From NCBI GenBank assembly GCA_965216785.1, contig OZ244197.1:2336001-2400000 (forward strand): DNA of 64,000 nucleotides, in the 5' to 3' direction. Position numbers and translations under genes: made by a program. This DNA comes from Thermodesulfobacteriota bacterium. Its GTDB lineage: Bacteria; Desulfobacterota_D; UBA1144; Nemesobacterales; UBA2774. Position 1 is the stretch's first letter; every line of letters begins with the position of its first letter. Shown piece after piece: positions 10,004-33,129 of the stretch. The notes under the pieces were generated by a model, which was given only the letters and a program-made list of their open reading frames with translations, was not told the origin of the DNA and made no database searches.

Positions 10004-10828
10004 ATGAGAGTAAGGAAGAAAACTCATTTAGCTATAGCCGCAGTGCTCTTTTCAGTAAGCTTTATATTCATTGGCCATACATATCTTACACAAATTGCTG
10101 GTGCGCAAGATGAGCCCCAGCAGGCAGCTCAGGCTGAGCCGCAAATAGCGATCGAGCCTGAAGCGCTCACTGTGCTCAAAAGGATGTCCGACGCTCTGAG
10201 CTCCCTTAAGCAGTTCAGCTTCGATGCCGAGGTCAATTTTGACGAACCCATAGATTCGGGACAGATGGTTCAGTACGGAGGCGTTGTAACAATAACCGTA
10301 AAAAGACCCAACAAAGTGTTTGCGGAAATGACAGGAGACCGGGCCCAGCGAAAGGCATGGTATAACGGTAAGGAATTAACCATGTTTGATCAGAAAAAAG
10401 ACTTTTACGGTCAGCTCGAAACACCCGATACCATAGATAAGACAATGGACTACCTCATGGAGACCTATGATTTTACACTCCCGCTGGCCGACATCCTGCA
10501 CACGGATCCATACGGGTCGTTTTCTGACGGCGCGTTGGAGGGCGTGGTCATAGGCGACGCTATAGTCAGAGGAAAGCAGTGCTCGCACATTGCGTTTGCC
10601 GGAGAGCTGATAGATTGGCAGATATGGGTTTCCAAAGAGGAGCCGGCTCTACCTTGTAAGCTGGTTATTACATATGAAGATCAACCGGGCGTGCCGCAGT
10701 ACCAGGCCACATTCTCTAACTGGAATGTGAACCCTGAAGTGCCGAACTCCTTGTTTAAGGCGCAGATACCCGAGGACGCGGTAAAGATTGATTTCATAGA
10801 TATGAAGAAACAAAGGGGGGCTAAATAA
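10004..10828 (+). CDS. Periplasmic DUF2092-like protein
   Basis: Signal peptide; LKRMSD.L, RPNK, PLADIL, DWQIW, PCKLVIT, W...P pattern. Confidence 0.8.
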   Translation: MRVRKKTHLAIAAVLFSVSFIFIGHTYLTQIAGAQDEPQQAAQAEPQIAIEPEALTVLKRMSDALSSLKQFSFDAEVNFDEPIDSGQMVQYGGVVTITVKRPNKVFAEMTGDRAQRKAWYNGKELTMFDQKKDFYGQLETPDTIDKTMDYLMETYDFTLPLADILHTDPYGSFSDGALEGVVIGDAIVRGKQCSHIAFAGELIDWQIWVSKEEPALPCKLVITYEDQPGVPQYQATFSNWNVNPEVPNSLFKAQIPEDAVKIDFIDMKKQRGAK

Positions 10829-11748
10829 TGAGATTAAGCATGAGAAATAATACTAAAAGACCTACAGTATTAATCATCTTCCTATTATTATCAGCGCTGC
10901 TCATTGTCACGAGCGACGCTTTCGCCCGCAGAGGCGGCGGTGGACACAGGGGAGGAGGGGGACATAAAAACGTTCAGAGAGGCGGGGGCGGAGGCGGCGG
11001 TGGGTTCGGAAACCGCGGTAACGGTAGCGTCCGCTATTCCGGGCAGCGAAACAATCAGGGGAGCAGGCAACGGAGCGCTCAGCACAGAAACCCCTCACAG
11101 GGAACAAGGCAAAATGTCGGTACCCGTCCGAATAACCCTAACAGGCCCAATAATCCCAACAATCCCAACAGGCCCAATAACCCGGGCAACAGACCTGGTA
11201 ATCCAGGCAACAGGCCGGGCGGCGGCAACAATACCATCAATGTTGACGTTACTAGAAAATATAGCAACAAAAATTATTACGGCGGTCACTGGAACTCTTG
11301 GGGCGGTTACTATTCAGGCTGGGCGTTTGCAAGCGGTCTTGTAATTGGGGCCGCGATTGCGAGCATACCTCAGCAGTCTCAGACAGTCTATGTGGGCGGA
11401 GACACCATATACTATTCAGAGGGCGTGTATTACGCCCCTGAAGGGAGTGAATACGTCGTGATACCGCCTCCTACCGGTGCGGTCGTAACGGATCTTCCTT
11501 CTTCCTGCACGACTGTAAGTGTGGGAGAGTACGACTACTACAACTGCGGCGGGGCGTATTACCTTAGACAGGGGTCAGAATATAAGGTCGTAGAGCCTCC
11601 GGTGGGAGCAATAGTGAGTGATATCCCCGAGGGCGCTCAGAAAACAGATATTAACGGGCAGACCTATTTTGTTTTCGCGGGCGGCTACTATCAGCCGTTT
11701 TACAGCGGGAACTCTGTCGTTTACAAAATCGTTCAGGCGCCTGCGTAA
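10828..11748 (+). CDS. Secreted Gly/Asn/Pro-rich protein with Tyr-rich repeat domain (DUF6515-like)
   Basis: Signal peptide ending AFA, low-complexity region, three YYY..G.YY..Y.VV.PP repeats; TAATG-coupled to upstream gene. Confidence 0.75.
   Translation: MRLSMRNNTKRPTVLIIFLLLSALLIVTSDAFARRGGGGHRGGGGHKNVQRGGGGGGGGFGNRGNGSVRYSGQRNNQGSRQRSAQHRNPSQGTRQNVGTRPNNPNRPNNPNNPNRPNNPGNRPGNPGNRPGGGNNTINVDVTRKYSNKNYYGGHWNSWGGYYSGWAFASGLVIGAAIASIPQQSQTVYVGGDTIYYSEGVYYAPEGSEYVVIPPPTGAVVTDLPSSCTTVSVGEYDYYNCGGAYYLRQGSEYKVVEPPVGAIVSDIPEGAQKTDINGQTYFVFAGGYYQPFYSGNSVVYKIVQAPA
11125..11220 (+). repeat. Intragenic coding repeats (RPNNPN / RPGNPGN)
   Basis: Degenerate tandem units, e.g. AACAGGCCCAATAA twice. Confidence 0.8.
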
Positions 11749-16926: not shown

Positions 16927-18102
16927 TTGCAGGAGAAACAAAGACGCAACTGGCTTGGAAATACTACTACTGTCGTCTTTTTACTGGCGATTCTTGGCGC
17001 GCTGATTTATGGTGCTGCAGTTTTCTACAACGGCTACATCCAGGATATTAAGCGTGGCGAGAACGGAGTTGCGGCGATTCAAGTATTGGACGAGTTGAGA
17101 GGCTCGTTCCTTGAGATGAAGCAAGAGGAATTAACCTTGCTTCAGTCTACCGACCAGACGCGCGCGATTGCCGGTATTGAAAACTCGATAAACCGGCAGC
17201 GCCAGAGGCTGTCTACTTACCTCAAACTCGCGGACTATAACGAGGAAATTAGAAGTACCGCTCCCAAACTCATGGTCAGCTTTGAGGCCTGGGCGTCACT
17301 TGAGCTGGATCTGGTGAACAGTAAAGCGGCTCTTCAAGCCGATCCGGGTATTAGAGCCGATAATAGTCAGATAGGATTTCTCGTACAAAGAAGCTTGTCG
17401 TCGTTCCTAAATGTCATGGACGTTCTGGGGGAGGGTGAGAGACCCATAGAAGAGGACATTAAAGCAGGAGCCGCGGCGGCTGACGGTCTGTTTACGAGCA
17501 CACTTGTGTTCGTAGCGTATCTGATCTGCCTTGCGTTCTGGTGGGTGTGGTCGGCGGCCGGCAGAGAGAGACGGCACTACAAGAACGTGCGCGAGTTCGC
17601 GCATATGAGTAATACCGACAACCTTACAGGACTCATCAATCGCGTTGTATTTGAAGACAGGCTCTCCGCCGCGATTGCGGGAGCGCGCCGCTACGGCAGC
17701 AGCGCCGGGGTCTTATACTTTGACCTTGACGGTCTAAGGGAATTGAACGTAAAGAAGGGATATCAATCAGGTGATATAGTCCTCAAAGAGGTTGCGCTCA
17801 GGCTTCAGCAATATACCCGCGAGATGGATACGGTGGCCAGAGTTGGTGATGACGAGTTCGCGGTTCTGGTAACCAACCTGAAGCAAAAGGAAGATGCCCA
17901 GGTAGTTGTGGACAAGCTTAAAAACGCCCTGACACAGCCGATTGAGCTTAACGGCGAGCAATACTCGCCAAGCGTTAGCATAGGCGCTTCGGTGTTTCCC
18001 TACGATGGGGAAGAGCCCGAAGAGCTCGTCAATAATGCGAACTCCGCTATGTATGAGGCAAAACAGGGATCTAAACCCAACGTTGCTTCCATCCAGCACT
18101 GA
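16927..18102 (+). CDS. Membrane GGDEF-domain protein (GDDEF variant)
   Basis: Two TM segments around a helical sensor; DNLTGLINR, DLDG, REMD I-site, RVGDDEF. Confidence 0.9.
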   Translation: MQEKQRRNWLGNTTTVVFLLAILGALIYGAAVFYNGYIQDIKRGENGVAAIQVLDELRGSFLEMKQEELTLLQSTDQTRAIAGIENSINRQRQRLSTYLKLADYNEEIRSTAPKLMVSFEAWASLELDLVNSKAALQADPGIRADNSQIGFLVQRSLSSFLNVMDVLGEGERPIEEDIKAGAAAADGLFTSTLVFVAYLICLAFWWVWSAAGRERRHYKNVREFAHMSNTDNLTGLINRVVFEDRLSAAIAGARRYGSSAGVLYFDLDGLRELNVKKGYQSGDIVLKEVALRLQQYTREMDTVARVGDDEFAVLVTNLKQKEDAQVVVDKLKNALTQPIELNGEQYSPSVSIGASVFPYDGEEPEELVNNANSAMYEAKQGSKPNVASIQH

Positions 18103-18114
18103 TCAATAATGCTA

Positions 18115-18165
18115 CTCAGCTCTTTAGGCTCTTATACAGCTCGTCGTGGATAGAGTCTTCGAGCT
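18115..18165 (-). repeat. att-like duplicate of the 3' end of the glutamate-synthase-family gene
   Basis: 18115-18148 is identical to 21235-21268 (34 bp); similarity continues to about 18165. Confidence 0.93.
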
Positions 18166-18246
18166 TAAAAAATGTAGAAAAGTAATACTATTCAAATTAG
18201 TATATCTATATATAGGAAGAAAATTGAAGTTGAAGGTTTAGGTAGA

Positions 18247-20691
18247 CTAACCGTTTAATCTTACAATGTATCCTTCAAAATCATCAGCTAATTCTAAGTC
18301 AAATTTCTCAAAAATACGTATCCACACTTTTGTCTTAAGATATTTTTCTTGTTCATCTTCATTACCAAATTCTTTAAGCCAATCGGGTGGTTCTGAAATG
18401 AATTTATCTAGTAGGTCTCGATTCTCAGAAAAGAATTCAATATTAATGTAAAATATATCTTTCTCAACAAATTCTGGGTTATCCTCCGGCATAAGAGGCG
18501 AATATTGTACTAGTTGACCTAACTGCTTTTTATTTAATAGTATTATAAGATCATCTATACCAGGAATAATAAAACTGAATACCGGGATCTTTTTATATGT
18601 TCCTACTCTTTGTTCCTTCTGCATATTATCATGATATTCTCTTTGACTTGAAATAAAATTTTCATTTATTTCCTTAAACTTATACAAAGAAAAACGAGTA
18701 GCTAATATTACTACATCATCTGAACTGTCAAATAAATCAATTTGTTTAAGAAACTCTTCTCTTGTTACTTCAATGCACGTTGATGCAATTTTAGCATATA
18801 GAAATGAATTCTCCGCTTGTGCTAGATCTCTGCCATAATTTTTAGCCCAATCTCTATAAGTTACATGCCACTCTTGAAAAAAGATGGCTTTTTCATCAAT
18901 TTTATTGATGCCAAATCGATTCAGTTTAGTATTAATGTATGTCATTTTTTCTGAATATAAATTGATACTCATAAACATGTTTCTAATTGTACTATGTTGA
19001 TTAAATGATGTTACAAAATCATCCTCGAATTCAAGTATTTTTGCTGAACTTGGTTTTAATTCTTCTGCCCGTTTTTTAAATTCATTTTCTGCCATTTTTT
19101 TTATATCTTCGAAATATTGGATTATGCATCTCAGAAATATTTCCTCTATATCATTTTCACTAAAATTCAATTCAGACAAAAATTGCTTCTCATTGCTAAG
19201 ACTTTTAGTGATATTGATATAATCATTTATAAAAAACTTGAGATCTTGCAGTCTATATATATCTATCTCTTCAACGAACCCAAATCTATTCTTTGTAATC
19301 TCAAATTTTTCAGGTTCATATAAGTTAGAATCAAATTTTATAACTCTAGCTAGTACTAGTATGAAATAGCGGTTTAAGTATATTTCTTGTCCATGATGAC
19401 CTTCCCAGCTATTCAACCTACGCTCGAAGAACGGTTTATCAAAATAAAATTTCATCAGACTATTAATAGTGGTAGGTGTTATATCATGACCAGCCCATTT
19501 TGCATCTGAGTCAGGAGGTTGTTTATATTCCCAGATAAAACGAATATAATCTGGTTTCTCTTTGAATAGGCAATAACTTCCTATAGCAAATGCAATTTCC
19601 AATATGCTAATAAATTTAATTTTATTGTCGAAACCGTCATAAATGTCTTTTTCAATTTGATAAGTGTATTCTTGCTGTTGAATATTAAAATATGGTTTTA
19701 AGATATCTTTAAGTTCTGTAAATTTGGCTCTGCAATGTTCTAAATCTTTCAGAACCGTGATATTTTCTGAATCGTTGTACAGAGTCTCTAATTTTTCTTC
19801 TATATTGTGTCTGTTATCTATCGATCTGTATAATTCAATATCCGATTGCATGATTAAATGACCATATTCCCATATTCTATTTATTCCGTAACTTGATAAG
19901 GATATTCCGTCAATCAACATAGATATTAGATGCTGAAATATTTCGAAGCGTCCATATGAAATAATTGTTTTTGCAGAAGAGAGGAAATGTTCATCGAAAA
20001 TTGACAGATAATATAGATTAAATTTTTTTTCAGGTTGTCCTAATAGATTGAATACTATATTTGTGTACCAATGAACTGATGAAGAATAAATAGAACGATC
20101 ACCAATTTTTCCACTATATTTCAAGAACAATATGGTAGTAATCTGATTTAAATATCTTAATATAGTCCTTATGTGTAGTTCATTATTCTCATCTTGAGCT
20201 AATTTGCCTAATACCATTTCAATTCGATATATGGCATGTGCAGAAATTTCCTCATTCCCAACTTTTAATGCAGATTCCCAGATTTTACCAAAGTAACTTA
20301 AAAATAAATCGAATAAACCTGTTTCAATTTCGGTTTCGGATATAATATCTTTCTCGGCTAACTCGGCCTGCATAGAACCGTCAATATTAAATCTTGGACT
20401 CGGGAGGTTTAATTTTGGTTTTATTCGATACTTTGCAAATGAAATCAGATATTGATTGTATTTATGTTTGTCTTCCTTTTTTAATTCATAGAACTTAATG
20501 ACATAATGTTCGAGACTGTCTAGTATTTCTAAAACAGTTTTATTTTCGTAGCGTGATGTTTTAGTTACAGCAATATTAGTTAATTTCTCTAGAGCAAATA
20601 TGAAATCGCCAATATCTTGTTTTTTCCTAAAAAATACTTTCAGCATGGTCTCGTAATTTTTGAGATATAACCCCTTCAATATTTGTAACAT
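18247..20691 (-). CDS. Large hypothetical protein; probable C-terminal part of a frameshifted gene of about 960 aa
   Basis: 814-codon ORF in AT-rich DNA, overlapping the upstream ORF at a T6 run. Confidence 0.75.
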   Translation of the reverse strand: MLQILKGLYLKNYETMLKVFFRKKQDIGDFIFALEKLTNIAVTKTSRYENKTVLEILDSLEHYVIKFYELKKEDKHKYNQYLISFAKYRIKPKLNLPSPRFNIDGSMQAELAEKDIISETEIETGLFDLFLSYFGKIWESALKVGNEEISAHAIYRIEMVLGKLAQDENNELHIRTILRYLNQITTILFLKYSGKIGDRSIYSSSVHWYTNIVFNLLGQPEKKFNLYYLSIFDEHFLSSAKTIISYGRFEIFQHLISMLIDGISLSSYGINRIWEYGHLIMQSDIELYRSIDNRHNIEEKLETLYNDSENITVLKDLEHCRAKFTELKDILKPYFNIQQQEYTYQIEKDIYDGFDNKIKFISILEIAFAIGSYCLFKEKPDYIRFIWEYKQPPDSDAKWAGHDITPTTINSLMKFYFDKPFFERRLNSWEGHHGQEIYLNRYFILVLARVIKFDSNLYEPEKFEITKNRFGFVEEIDIYRLQDLKFFINDYINITKSLSNEKQFLSELNFSENDIEEIFLRCIIQYFEDIKKMAENEFKKRAEELKPSSAKILEFEDDFVTSFNQHSTIRNMFMSINLYSEKMTYINTKLNRFGINKIDEKAIFFQEWHVTYRDWAKNYGRDLAQAENSFLYAKIASTCIEVTREEFLKQIDLFDSSDDVVILATRFSLYKFKEINENFISSQREYHDNMQKEQRVGTYKKIPVFSFIIPGIDDLIILLNKKQLGQLVQYSPLMPEDNPEFVEKDIFYINIEFFSENRDLLDKFISEPPDWLKEFGNEDEQEKYLKTKVWIRIFEKFDLELADDFEGYIVRLNG

Positions 20692-21130
20692 ACTGATTGA
20701 TACGTATCATAAACCTCCAAAATACCAAAATATTTATTATTGACCACACAAAATATATCACTAACAAATATGGACTGGAAATTCCAATAAATCTGAACAA
20801 AATGCCAAACATAATACTTACTAGGAACAAAAGGTATTGAGACTTATATAGAAATTCATCGGTGAGTAAAGATGCTATCTCTCCATCATAATCTTTCGTA
20901 ATATTAGATACAACCTGAACACTTATTGGAATTGATAAACCAATAAATACCCCTTCGACTGTGATCACGTCTTGTATAAAAGTTGCATTAGTAGTTAGTG
21001 AAAATAGTTTCTGTATATATGATGGAGCAGGATTGCCAAAGTAAAAAGAATTAAATGTTAATCCTATTACAAAGACTAATAGAAATAAGGTAAATGCTAC
21101 CGAGAAATTGTATAGATTTGAACGATTCAC
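20627..21130 (-). CDS. Hypothetical membrane protein (about 4 TM); probable N-terminal part of the split gene
   Basis: Four hydrophobic segments; ends ATT TTT TAG. Confidence 0.7.
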   Translation of the reverse strand: MNRSNLYNFSVAFTLFLLVFVIGLTFNSFYFGNPAPSYIQKLFSLTTNATFIQDVITVEGVFIGLSIPISVQVVSNITKDYDGEIASLLTDEFLYKSQYLLFLVSIMFGILFRFIGISSPYLLVIYFVWSIINILVFWRFMIRINQYVTNIEGVISQKLRDHAESIF

Positions 21131-21235
21131 TTAAGTCTCTATGGTGGTTGTTAAACAAATAATGTATAAGCGACTATAGCAGAAAATGGAAAAATCTTCA
21201 ACTGCAGGTCTCAAAGCACCGGATAGCCAAAATCC

Positions 21236-22963
21236 TCAGCTCTTTAGGCTCTTATACAGCTCGTCGTGTATGCAATCTTCAAGGCTCGAGCTCTCGGGCA
21301 AATACACGCCGAACGGGTCGTCATCAAAATATCTTACAAATACGTTTTTATAGCTAATAATTCTAATGTCTGTTTTGTTTATGTCCCTTGGGTCGCTGTG
21401 CCCAAGCACTTTTGTCAGGTGCATCATGTCCTTGTGAAACCCTTCCATGTAATGGTGCACTCGGGTCGATTTCTCAGGCAGATTAATACCATGGATCCTC
21501 CACTTGCTGTTGGTCGTAATACCCGTCGGGCATTCGTTCGTGTGGCACTTGAGCGACTGTATACATCCAAGCGCAAGCATAACTCCCCTAGCGGTCTCGA
21601 TAATGTCCGCGCCTACGGCAAAGGCCAGGGCCGCGTGCGCGGGGGTAAACAGCTTCCCAGAGCTTGAGATTGTCACCTTGTCCCTTAGCCCCGCTTCCTT
21701 TAGCTTTTTATCCAGATAAAAGGTGGTTTCAAAAGAGGTCCCGTAACCAACGTAATTCATAAATAGATTCTCTCCGGCCCCCGTACCTCCGTCCGCCCCG
21801 TCAACCTGAATCGCGTCAGGTCCTCCCCCGGTCTCCTTCATTGCCTCGATCAGCAGATCAACCTCGTCAAGCCTTCCAATGCACATCTTAATCCCTACCG
21901 GAAGCCCGGTCAGCTTCCTTACCCTCTGTATTAACTCCAGGAGCTTTAACACTGAGTCCTTTGGGGTAGAGGCAATGCACTCAGCGTGCTGGCAAGGGCT
22001 CATTATGGTCTTCCACGGCTCGACTCTTCTCACCGCCGCTATCTCGGGAGTTACCTTAACGCCCGGCAGCATTCCCCCCAGAGAAGGCTTTCCGCCCTGA
22101 GAAATCTTTAACTGTATCATCTTTACATTGTCATTTTTGACTACGAGTTCTTTAAGCAAATCATCGTCCAGAAGCCGGGTAGGGGTGCCGTCGTTAAGCG
22201 CCCCGTCCCTTCCCACGCCGAACTTCCCAGTGCCTATCTGAAACACAACGTCATTCCCCGCCACCCCGTGCGGGCCGTAACCGCCCTCTCCTGTATTCAC
22301 ATAACAGACGTCTTTTGCCCCTATGCTTATACACTCAGCCGCTTTCCAGTTGATAGAGCCGTAGCTCATGGCAGAGACGTTTACGGTGTTCTTTACCGGG
22401 AAGGGGATAATATCCGGTCTTCCTTCACCGATGACAAGCTCGTAAGACTCTTTTTCAGTCTCGCCCGGGAAATTCCTGTGCAGTATGTGAGACTGCGCCG
22501 TGTTCTCCAGATCAAACTCGTCAAGCTCCGTTCCGAACCCGGCGAAGGGTTTTAAGTCCTTTGCTTTCTGATATATGTAATCTCTCACAATCCTCGGAAT
22601 TGGCCTGCCGTTTGTGTTGGATTCGTTGAAGTACTGTAGGTACTTGTCCCTGAAAGTGTCTTCAAATAGATATCGTACCCTGCCGAACGGGCCGTAGATT
22701 CTAATTAGCGTCCTGTCGTCCTGTACAAATAGCTCCCTAATAGAGAAGATAATTATTGCGGCTGCTATGATTAAGCCAAAATAGAGCCAGCTTCTAAAAA
22801 TAAGTCCCGCAGGGATGGAAAGTACAAAAAGCCCGATAGTGATAAGATCCATCGCTTTCTCTAAAGGCGGGTTATAGGTGTAGGGAACAAGGCACAGGCT
22901 TTTACCAAGTCGGTTGAGCTTGTTAATTAGCTTTTTGCCTTCGCGGGAAGCTTTATAGGGCAT
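21236..22963 (-). CDS. FMN-binding glutamate synthase family protein with N-terminal TM segments
   Basis: SAMSYGS, NTGEGG, FQIGTG, KISQGGKP, DGADGGTG, CIQSLKCHTNEC cluster motif. Confidence 0.92.
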   Translation of the reverse strand: MPYKASREGKKLINKLNRLGKSLCLVPYTYNPPLEKAMDLITIGLFVLSIPAGLIFRSWLYFGLIIAAAIIIFSIRELFVQDDRTLIRIYGPFGRVRYLFEDTFRDKYLQYFNESNTNGRPIPRIVRDYIYQKAKDLKPFAGFGTELDEFDLENTAQSHILHRNFPGETEKESYELVIGEGRPDIIPFPVKNTVNVSAMSYGSINWKAAECISIGAKDVCYVNTGEGGYGPHGVAGNDVVFQIGTGKFGVGRDGALNDGTPTRLLDDDLLKELVVKNDNVKMIQLKISQGGKPSLGGMLPGVKVTPEIAAVRRVEPWKTIMSPCQHAECIASTPKDSVLKLLELIQRVRKLTGLPVGIKMCIGRLDEVDLLIEAMKETGGGPDAIQVDGADGGTGAGENLFMNYVGYGTSFETTFYLDKKLKEAGLRDKVTISSSGKLFTPAHAALAFAVGADIIETARGVMLALGCIQSLKCHTNECPTGITTNSKWRIHGINLPEKSTRVHHYMEGFHKDMMHLTKVLGHSDPRDINKTDIRIISYKNVFVRYFDDDPFGVYLPESSSLEDCIHDELYKSLKS

Positions 22964-32226: not shown

Positions 32227-33129
32227 TTATTTTACTGCCAACACTGAGCAGGGCGATTCCTGTATGATCTTTTCAGTTTCACTTCCGTATATGAGTCTGC
32301 TTACCCCTTTGCGACCGTGAGTTTTAACGACCGTCAAATCGATCTGGTTCTTTTCGGCAAATTCCCTGAGCACGTAACTGGGGCTGATGCCGTGAAGGAC
32401 CTGGCTCTTAATCTCCACGCCCGGCTCTTTAGCTTCAGGCGTATCTTTTGAACCCGATTCGGCTGCCACTATACGGGCAAGCTCGGTCTTGGAGCGCTCA
32501 ATAAGCTCGTCTACCAGACCGGGCGGTATCTCATAAGCCGTGCCGTCAAGCCAGAACACATAAACCGCGATAACTTCAGCGCCCACTTTATCCGCAAGGG
32601 CAAGCGCTTCTGGGAGCGCTGAAACCGAGATGTCTGATATATCCACGGGAACCATTATCTTTTTTATATCCGTACTGTATGTATCGCCTTTACTCCTTAC
32701 GGCCAATACGGGAGCATTTATTTGCCTCAATACCTTGACAGTGTTGCTGCCGATAAGCGTGCTGCTTAGAAACCCCTGTCCCTTCTTACCCATCACAATA
32801 AGATCCGCCCCTTCTATGTCGGCGGTTTCTATTATCCCCTCCACGGTGCCGTCCCTGATTATCGTAGAGCTAAAGGGTATACCTTTTTCCTTGAACTTCT
32901 CCGATACCTCGTCAAACCTTTGCTTAAAGCTATTCTCTGTTTTTTCAGCGATTTCTAAAATCGCGTCTTCGTATACCGGCAGAAGAGATGTCAGAGGGAA
33001 ATGAATCTCACTTACGTACAGAGCCGTTACTGAAGCCTTAAAAACATCTGCCAGGTATAGTGCAGAATCAAGCGCTTTGTCCGACTCTTCAGAGCCGTCT
33101 GTAGCCAGGAGTATCTTCTTTATATCCAT
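32227..33129 (-). CDS. Tandem-domain universal stress protein
   Basis: MDIKKILLATDGS (start moved to 33129), DLIVMG, GSETEKII..SPCSVL. Confidence 0.92.
   Translation of the reverse strand: MDIKKILLATDGSEESDKALDSALYLADVFKASVTALYVSEIHFPLTSLLPVYEDAILEIAEKTENSFKQRFDEVSEKFKEKGIPFSSTIIRDGTVEGIIETADIEGADLIVMGKKGQGFLSSTLIGSNTVKVLRQINAPVLAVRSKGDTYSTDIKKIMVPVDISDISVSALPEALALADKVGAEVIAVYVFWLDGTAYEIPPGLVDELIERSKTELARIVAAESGSKDTPEAKEPGVEIKSQVLHGISPSYVLREFAEKNQIDLTVVKTHGRKGVSRLIYGSETEKIIQESPCSVLAVK

What the first reader, a model, noticed from the sequence alone, without database searches (positions are those of the whole stretch)
18115..21285. Islet integrated into the 3' end of a glutamate-synthase-family gene with gene-end replacement
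Seen: a 34-bp perfect direct repeat (18115-18148 / 21235-21268) extends imperfectly and still codes: LEDSIHDELYKSLKS* versus LEDCIHDELYKSLKS*. The enclosed 3.1 kb is AT-rich and has no recombinase. Removing it leaves the gene ending 13 bp from the convergent GGDEF gene. Known: integrative elements restore target gene ends in this way. Inference: an unusual protein-gene att site, with a decayed or trans-mobilised element.
Basis: partly seen in the sequence, partly recalled or inferred. Interest (0 to 1): 0.7.

Follow-up and report, generated by a model that had tools for sequence, protein, structure and literature searches.

The report
Islet carrying capsid-fold membrane protein pair
A 3.1-kb foreign two-gene block sits between two copies of a gene's last 49 bases, likely spliced in by the cell's own recombination rather than by an integrase, and its large protein is predicted to end in a phage-capsid fold, which makes the pair a candidate undescribed anti-phage system.

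Summary
The repeat and islet are real. Near-identical strains in two other studies lack the islet. Their empty site is not the predicted excision product: it has 49 other bases, not 13. An integrase att site is poorly supported. The nearest tyrosine integrase is 218 kb away. About nine unrelated genes in this genome have the same downstream gene-end scar, and a congener has a weak, separate scar at this gene behind other cargo. Best mechanism: integrase-free insertion-duplication, a known scar that this scan noted before in other genomes.

The surprise is the cargo. A membrane protein is paired with, or in relatives fused to, an ~800-aa protein that has a helical solenoid and a confidently predicted C-terminal HK97 capsid/encapsulin fold (pLDDT 93.8; all 50 listed matches HK97-type, best Z 13.3). 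The family is large (1056 clusters), matches no Pfam, PADLOC, NCBIfam or PHROG model and was not found in viral collections. It lies beside restriction or defence genes in 10 of 22 loci. Defence is inferred, not tested.

The parts
21236..22963 (-). Stand-alone FMN-binding glutamate-synthase-family gene (575 aa); its 3' end is the duplicated target
   Evidence: PF01645 residues 188-522, E 8e-65; the true 1538-aa gltB is elsewhere in G000
21235..21283 (-). Live copy of the gene end (34 bp exact plus 15 bp imperfect)
   Evidence: same allele as empty-site strain X5, no differences listed over 21236-21322
18115..18163 (-). Orphan gene-end remnant, a diverged allele (5 mismatches, 4 at third codon positions)
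18164..21234 (.). 3071-bp islet, 30% GC, absent from near-identical strains
   Evidence: cargo in 1 of 120 genomes of the phylum searched, G000 itself
20627..21130 (-). ORF A, 167 aa, predicted membrane protein (3 hydrophobic segments by a hydropathy scan); its family is fused to the N-terminus of ORF B in many relatives
   Evidence: a profile of 11 partner ORFs hits ORF A at 8e-29 and 27 of 38 test sequences; weak Pfam 8xMP hits below cut-off in 2 of 5 relatives
18247..20691 (-). ORF B, 814 aa (799 aa from the ATG at 20646), intact and overlapping the end of ORF A
   Evidence: 1056 relatives at E<=0.001
19132..20646 (-). N-terminal ~500 aa of ORF B: predicted alpha-helical solenoid, only generic helical-repeat matches
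18250..19131 (-). C-terminal 294 aa of ORF B: predicted HK97 (capsid/encapsulin) fold
   Evidence: pLDDT 93.8, pTM 0.90; VIA-align Z 13.3 to 2e0z, rmsd 2.9 over 190 residues; 30 Foldseek matches at E<=0.001
18103..18115 (.). 13-bp spacer between the remnant's stop and the GGDEF stop; differs from the 49-bp spacer of empty strains
16927..18102 (+). Convergent GGDEF gene; its last ~360 bp (about 17739-18102) are ~7% diverged from empty strains, against ~1% upstream
   Evidence: X7 22 differences in 306 bp versus 3 in 368; X6 27 in 876 versus 21 in 2707

Best explanation
The islet is a horizontally acquired two-gene block that was likely inserted without an integrase, by recombination anchored in the 3' end of the glutamate-synthase-family gene, and it encodes a membrane protein plus a large protein predicted to end in an HK97 capsid fold, which likely serves anti-phage defence. 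Shown: the repeat, the foreign composition, empty strains, allele mosaics on both sides and recurrence of the scar. Inferred, insertion: incoming DNA carried a related strain's gene end joined to the cargo. It crossed over in that homology and was joined illegitimately, or after trimming and circularising, a few dozen bases before the resident stop. One allele of the end stayed on the gene and the other was stranded behind the cargo. The whole block may then have moved between strains by ordinary double crossover; the data do not fix the order. Predicted: the fold. Inferred, function: ORF A anchors ORF B at the membrane, and the capsid-like domain would bind or co-assemble with phage head proteins, acting as a sensor or decoy coupled to the membrane part. 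I put about 0.7 on the integrase-free insertion and about 0.45 on defence; the confidence given is for the insertion mechanism plus the fold.
For: Empty strains at ~98.5-99% identity join 18102 to 21236 in runs X5, X6 (study P2) and X7 (study P3). They carry the live allele, while the remnant, the 13-bp spacer and the GGDEF 3' end form a second haplotype; difference clusters at 21323-21347 and 21413-21433 indicate recombination tracts. The last 60 nt of 5 of 2541 ORFs have a single orphan copy downstream, versus 0, 1, 0 and 0 for four control windows along the same genes. Looser scans give 9 sites; 8 of 9 are at least 35 kb from a tyrosine integrase. At the site ending C1:1956659 the congener G002 is empty and its post-stop DNA matches what follows the G000 remnant. 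ComEC and DprA are present. In E. coli, trimmed recircularised fragments gave 109-950-bp duplications (PMC3240628, passages). The same cargo pair is flanked by a 126-bp, 72% copy of a Fic gene end in L040. Fold; the Atlas also points to capsid families at 0.91, a lead only. The domain is kept in 117 of 119 homologues of 740 aa or more. Defence: 23 of 114 neighbour ORFs in 10 of 22 loci, versus 0 of 53 window proteins after the same curation. Cargo GC is at least 5 points below its flanks in 13 of 18 loci.
Against: The donor and the illegitimate joint were not seen, so microhomology and RecA dependence are untested. 34-49 bp is shorter than the duplications in PMC3240628. HFIR normally deletes rather than duplicates (same paper). 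In L039 the cargo sits beside a tyrosine integrase and a 19-bp repeat that looks like a tRNA end by eye, so this cargo can ride integrative elements. Only 1 of 22 homologue loci shows an integrase-free gene-end scar. The G002 remnant is weak: 21 bp at E 9e-4, score 36 against a best shuffle of 30; 1 other of 12 loci also edged past its shuffles, 34 versus 31. For defence: 12 of 22 loci, and this locus itself, have no clear defence neighbour. The control is one 64-kb window, and the curation was by hand. Defence-rich neighbourhoods also collect other mobile genes. No catalytic or toxic domain was identified. Sequence identity to solved HK97 proteins is only 3-14%.
Confidence: 0.68

Rival explanations
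1. One reading: a site-specific integrative element uses the gene end as att site (e14/icd type) and has since lost its integrase or is mobilised in trans.
For: The geometry is the same as e14 in icd (PMC6379469, passages). There is a perfect 34-bp core with mismatches only on one side. The genome has 15 tyrosine and 2 large serine recombinases. A homologous cargo lies by an integrase in L039. Two genera-level lineages (G000, G002) appear to have insertions at this gene end.
Against: The empty allele is not the excision product. The pattern search found no integrase-linked copy: 0 hits in viral contigs, 4 in metagenome contigs (2 unrelated chance-like, 2 single intact gene ends), and 3 of 101 genomes. 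The scar recurs at unrelated genes. The G002 scar seems to start elsewhere. The target is patchy with a variable C-terminus. Six of the 15 integrase matches lie within about 600 bp of a tRNA gene.
Confidence: 0.2
2. The cargo is a metabolic or structural nanocompartment: an encapsulin-like shell with a fused internal or external helical domain, tethered to the membrane, unrelated to phage defence.
For: The four best structural matches are encapsulins (Z 12.3-13.3). N-terminal Flp and cytochrome fusions and a transmembrane fusion are known in encapsulins (PMC8346489, passages).
Against: No conserved enzyme cargo gene among 114 neighbours. The distribution is sporadic, AT-rich and often next to restriction systems. 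A fused 500-aa solenoid plus membrane anchor would be hard to fit in a small closed shell (inference). Z differences under 1 are ties, and phage capsids follow at 11.3 and below.
Confidence: 0.2
3. The cargo is a degenerate prophage or satellite capsid gene with no host function.
For: HK97 fold. A terminase gene lies next to one homologue (L036) and phage-type ParB-methylases next to two (L036, L043).
Against: No relative in IMG/VR contigs or 50,697 phage records, and no convincing PHROG match for 25 domains. The full solenoid-plus-domain architecture is conserved across many phyla at about 30-50% identity. No portal or capsid-protease Pfam hit among 114 neighbours.
Confidence: 0.07
4. The repeat is an assembly artefact.
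For: None beyond the general risk at repeats.
Against: The two copies differ at 5 positions in a codon-like pattern. Run X4 has the islet at flank depth and the 34-mer at double depth. The genome is one contig.
Confidence: 0.02

Closest known systems
Homology-facilitated illegitimate recombination and insertion-duplication by trimmed, recircularised fragments (PMC3240628, PMC5361080, PMC2884548; passages read)
   Same: One-sided homology brings in unrelated DNA without an integrase. Displaced 3' ends are left behind the new genes (V. cholerae T6SS arrays), and partial duplications of the anchor arise (E. coli).
   Different: Here the duplication is only 49 bp and ends at the stop codon. Classical HFIR usually deletes about as much as it inserts. 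The mechanism here is inferred from sequence only.
Prophage e14 in icd of E. coli (PMC6379469, passages)
   Same: Insertion near the 3' end of a protein gene; an intact gene plus a pseudo 3' copy beyond the insert.
   Different: No integrase, no precise empty site, and the same scar at many unrelated genes.
Encapsulins, especially Flp-fusion Family 1 (P. furiosus, PDB 2e0z) and transmembrane-fused Family 3 of Mesorhizobium (PMC8346489, passages)
   Same: HK97-fold domain in a non-phage setting, with fusions to other domains.
   Different: No Pfam or NCBIfam match and 8-11% identity. The N-terminal part is a ~500-aa helical solenoid with a membrane partner, split or fused. No enzyme cargo; neighbours are often restriction or defence genes. 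Shell formation is unknown.
HK97-type phage major capsid proteins (PDB 3qpr, 1ohg, 9gyi)
   Same: Fold: Z 10.5-11.3 over about 190 residues.
   Different: Not found in phage collections, not in head-assembly operons, and fused to a large cellular-type domain.

Membership tests
Integrase-targeted island (e14/icd type) | Duplication of the target gene's 3' end that keeps the gene intact | tested here: met
Integrase-targeted island (e14/icd type) | Integrase in or beside the element | tested here: not met
   No Pfam match in either ORF; nearest tyrosine recombinase 218 kb away; serine recombinases over 1 Mb away
Integrase-targeted island (e14/icd type) | Empty site equals the precise excision product | tested here: not met
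   49 other bases instead of 13 in X5, X6, X7; a second junction haplotype could explain this
Integrase-targeted island (e14/icd type) | Same crossover point reused by independent elements | tested here: inconclusive
   One weak, decayed second scar in G002/L025 that seems to start elsewhere
Integrase-targeted island (e14/icd type) | Excised circle | not testable with these tools
   Only contigs were available, and they break at the 34-mer
HFIR / insertion-duplication scar | DNA uptake machinery in the host | tested here: met
   ComEC and DprA; both are widespread (10 of 14 controls over cut-off), so weak evidence
HFIR / insertion-duplication scar | Not tied to one target sequence | tested here: met
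   5 of 2541 gene ends by a strict test, 9 sites by looser scans, no common junction motif by eye
HFIR / insertion-duplication scar | Allele mosaic in the homologous anchor | tested here: met
   Difference clusters on both flanks
HFIR / insertion-duplication scar | Microhomology at the illegitimate joint and RecA dependence | not testable with these tools
   Donor DNA not found
Encapsulins (Families 1-4) | HK97 fold | tested here: met
   Predicted model and structure searches
Encapsulins (Families 1-4) | Sequence match to encapsulin or capsid family models | tested here: not met
   Pfam: none for ORF B or 25 long homologues; NCBIfam: none; the profile found no capsid among PDB sequences at E<=10
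Encapsulins (Families 1-4) | Adjacent enzyme cargo gene in a conserved operon | tested here: not met
   No recurring cargo among 114 neighbours of 22 loci; targeting peptides were not searched
Encapsulins (Families 1-4) | Self-assembly into shells | not tested
Phage major capsid protein in a prophage | Head-assembly neighbours and presence in viral genomes | tested here: not met
   Terminase beside 1 of 22 loci; none in viral contigs or phage records
Known anti-phage defence system | Match to a catalogued defence protein | tested here: not met
   PADLOC 2.0: 0 of 8 proteins at E<=0.1; the library dates from 2023
Known anti-phage defence system | Enrichment next to defence genes | tested here: met
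   10 of 22 loci, 23 of 114 ORFs, versus 0 of 53 control proteins; single-window control, hand curation
Known anti-phage defence system | Protection against phage | not testable with these tools
   Needs a bench assay

The most novel reading that the evidence does not exclude
The cargo is a widespread, undescribed anti-phage system built from a domesticated capsid protein. A membrane-anchored helical solenoid displays an HK97 domain that co-assembles with or senses phage head components and then poisons assembly or opens the membrane partner. It would be a third cellular use of the HK97 fold, after encapsulins and gene transfer agents, and it spreads partly by integrase-free gene-end insertion.
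Probability: 0.4. Interest if true: 0.87.

Novelty: new variant of a known kind. Interest (0 to 1): 0.66.

Why it matters
The scar itself is ordinary, but this genome shows it at about nine genes, with empty strains at hand, so integrase-free gene gain at gene ends can be studied directly. It also warns that a gene-end duplication is not proof of an att site. The cargo matters more. Over a thousand sequence clusters of unannotated proteins are predicted to carry a capsid fold behind a solenoid and a membrane anchor, outside phages and often beside restriction systems. If they defend against phage, they show cells turning a viral coat protein into an immune sensor or decoy. If they do not, they are still an unrecognised branch of cellular HK97 proteins. 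Two genes are enough to test either reading.

Tried and rejected
Search for an integrase-linked copy of the gene end with a degenerate pattern: viral contigs 0; metagenome contigs 4, of which L024 and L026 are unrelated DNA and L025 and L027 are intact gene ends; 3 of 101 genomes of the order. A single-protein scan of genome contigs with ORF B found nothing; the alignment found 25 loci. The full-length fold from 8 sequences was mediocre (pLDDT 64) and gave only generic helical matches and weak capsid hints; the whole-protein Atlas search scored below 0.8. Promoter and terminator scan: 16 promoter-like sites against 19.5 expected, no terminator. No RNA holder was listed, which says nothing on expression. 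X8 and X12 did not cover the junction, and X12's two 18-19-bp hits inside the islet are chance. Only 30 of the 49 spacer bases of the empty allele could be read. The tRNA scan inside one search printed nothing, so L039's tRNA-like end is judged by eye. A short dyad around the 34-bp core was noticed but not tested and is not used. Dropped before counting: L048, L053 and L054 (short contigs) from the neighbour scan; 10 PADLOC hits among neighbours and 2 among controls judged housekeeping, phage-type or partial. Not in print as far as searched: five full-text searches listed no description of this architecture, judged from listings and abstract starts. Two 2025 defence-prediction preprints do not contain the words HK97, capsid or encapsulin in their main text (their supplements are closed and might list the family). 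Three papers could not be opened, and most subscription journals are not held. The scan's own notes had nothing on this protein.
Full report
Observation. The 34-bp exact repeat is at the stated coordinates and extends to 49 bp at 90% identity. Both peptide readings are right and only two copies exist in the genome. The 3071 bp between them are 30% GC against 46% for the genome and hold two ORFs of 167 and 814 aa without Pfam matches. The target is a stand-alone 575-aa FMN glutamate-synthase-family gene, not gltB. Run X4, probably the source sample, covers the islet at flank depth and the 34-mer at double depth. Earlier scan notes call the organism a Candidatus Dadabacteria member; I did not test that.

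Empty sites. Of four runs laid, three (X5 and X6 of study P2, X7 of study P3) have contigs that join 18102 to 21236 with 49 other bases between. X5 differs from the window at 49 of 3603 and 64 of 3765 flank positions. So the islet is strain-variable, but the empty allele is not the 13-bp excision product. In one search, X5 shows no difference from the live copy over 21236-21322, X5 and X7 share the same spacer end, and a 92% haplotype in X7 has a similar spacer, so the longer spacer is probably ancestral. The window differs from X5 in clusters at 21323-21347 and 21413-21433 (X8 sides with X5 in the second), and from X7 at 22 of 306 bases in the GGDEF 3' end against 3 of 368 just upstream. The remnant, its 13-bp spacer and the GGDEF end therefore look like one foreign haplotype. 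Whether the islet formed in this lineage or arrived ready-made by double crossover is not resolved.

Is it an att site? No integrase is in or near the islet: the closest of 15 tyrosine recombinase matches is 218 kb away and two serine recombinases are over 1 Mb away. Pattern searches found no integrase-linked copy. Close orthologues occur in 8 of 24 other family genomes, with different downstream genes and often a different C-terminus. Among 12 loci checked for a remnant, G002 and the near-identical L025 have a weak one about 2.95 kb downstream, behind a 952-aa surface-protein gene: 21 bp at E 9e-4, extending loosely to 91 bases before the stop, score 36 against a best shuffle of 30. One other locus scored 34 against 31 and is not believed.

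A genome-wide habit. The last 60 nt of 5 of 2541 ORFs have a single orphan copy 0.3-15 kb downstream, against 0, 1, 0 and 0 for the first, quarter, middle and three-quarter windows. Looser scans add four sites. The nine involve unrelated genes and remnants of 36-207 bp at 75-97% identity; eight are at least 35 kb from a tyrosine integrase, and no junction motif is shared by eye. At one site G002 is empty and continues like the DNA behind the remnant. ComEC and DprA are present. This fits homology-anchored insertion: displaced 3' ends in V. cholerae (PMC5361080, passages), the HFIR model (PMC2884548, passages) and 109-950-bp duplications from recircularised fragments in E. coli (PMC3240628, passages). 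e14 in icd has the same geometry but an integrase (PMC6379469, passages). Eight earlier scan notes on other genomes reached a similar reading; they are unchecked and not counted as support.

The cargo. ORF B has 8 close homologues and, by profile, 1056 clusters at E<=0.001, 447 at 1e-30. Twenty-five genome loci span Patescibacteria, cyanobacteria, Proteobacteria, Firmicutes, spirochaetes, an archaeon and others, yet only 1 of 120 genomes of this phylum has it. Named members are 'hypothetical'. ORF A's membrane family is a separate overlapping gene in 11 loci and fused in many others, so the split is natural. PADLOC, NCBIfam and Pfam gave nothing, apart from sub-threshold 8xMP hits for ORF A relatives; PHROGs gave three hits at E 0.02-0.04 among 25 domains. 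The N-terminal ~500 aa are a predicted helical solenoid. The last 294 aa, folded with 122 sequences, gave pLDDT 93.8 and pTM 0.90. Against 48,161 representative chains, all 50 listed matches are encapsulins, capsids or capsid-related entries, led by P. furiosus encapsulin (Z 13.3, rmsd 2.9, 190 residues), other encapsulins (13.2, 13.1, 12.3), a cf-PICI capsid (11.3) and HK97 (11.2). Foldseek gave 30 matches at E<=0.001, and those listed are of the same kinds. The domain is C-terminal in 117 of 119 homologues of 740 aa or more. The family was not found in viral contigs or phage records and once on a plasmid.

Function. In 22 of the 25 loci I scanned up to three ORFs on each side: 23 of 114 ORFs, in 10 loci, are restriction-modification or defence genes after dropping 10 doubtful PADLOC hits; one locus has a terminase; no enzyme cargo recurs. 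The control, 53 window proteins, gave 2 housekeeping-type hits and no defence gene. This locus itself and 11 other scanned loci plus one ambiguous one lack such neighbours. In L040 the pair sits between a Fic gene and a type III methylase, flanked by a 126-bp copy of the Fic gene end; in L039 it lies by a tyrosine integrase. Known encapsulin fusions include N-terminal Flp and cytochrome domains and a C-terminal transmembrane domain (PMC8346489, passages), not this architecture; a review of MGE domestication lists encapsulins as the HK97 case in the passages read (PMC8987985). I commit to defence by capsid sensing or decoy as the likeliest role (about 0.45); assembly and protection are untested.

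Verdict. Observation confirmed; att-site reading only partly supported; the insertion scar is a known kind. The cargo is a new variant of cellular HK97-fold proteins, not found described in the searches named under Tried and rejected. Interest 0.66.

Noticed in passing
G000:C1 sites at 32790/38104, 161974/163015, 1051978/1050781, 1289986/1291988, 1354438/1359415, 1956624/1958104, 1968637/1966212, 2142855/2141730: Eight further gene-end remnants (36-207 bp) behind 1-3 gene cargos, e.g. after a glycosyltransferase, an RNase HII-like, an ArsA-like and a small integrase-like gene (names by eye from the sequences).
   Followed up: partly
L069:5380-5475 (G002:C155) and L025: Weak decayed remnant of the same glutamate-synthase-family gene end behind a 952-aa beta-propeller surface-protein gene.
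   Followed up: partly
L040:6974-7099 and 10334-10459: Same cargo pair bracketed by a 72% copy of a Fic gene end plus spacer, upstream of a type III methylase; the spacer holds short repeated motifs.
   Followed up: partly
L039:7013-7031 and 10820-10838: Cargo pair inside a 19-bp tRNA-like direct repeat next to a tyrosine integrase, with an inverted integrase fragment downstream; the tRNA scan did not confirm it.
   Followed up: partly
L037:6756-7205 and 10591-10887: Cargo (split at a different place, 358 + 561 aa) flanked by 94-114-bp imperfect inverted repeats, next to a DDE transposase.
   Followed up: no
G000:C1 77160-116000, 1276105-1299100, 1598983-1618900, 1806968-1825250, 2010990-2027700, 2672293-2682600, 2817619-2829330: Several classical tRNA-end islands, some in tandem with up to three or four att copies, mostly with their own integrases.
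   Followed up: no
G000:C1 1163454, 1289455, 870977: Three short (~210-220 aa) tyrosine-recombinase-only ORFs away from tRNA genes; possible trans-acting recombinases.
   Followed up: no
P0107, P0123, P0134, P0138, P0151, P0153; L047, L049, L051, L054: A 1000-1090-aa subgroup shares the C-terminal HK97-like domain but has a different N-terminal membrane region that the ORF A profile does not hit.
   Followed up: no
G018:C16:253921-255605; G017:C10:53482-55195: The glutamate-synthase-family orthologue is interrupted by stops or a frameshift in these relatives, consistent with a dispensable gene.
   Followed up: no
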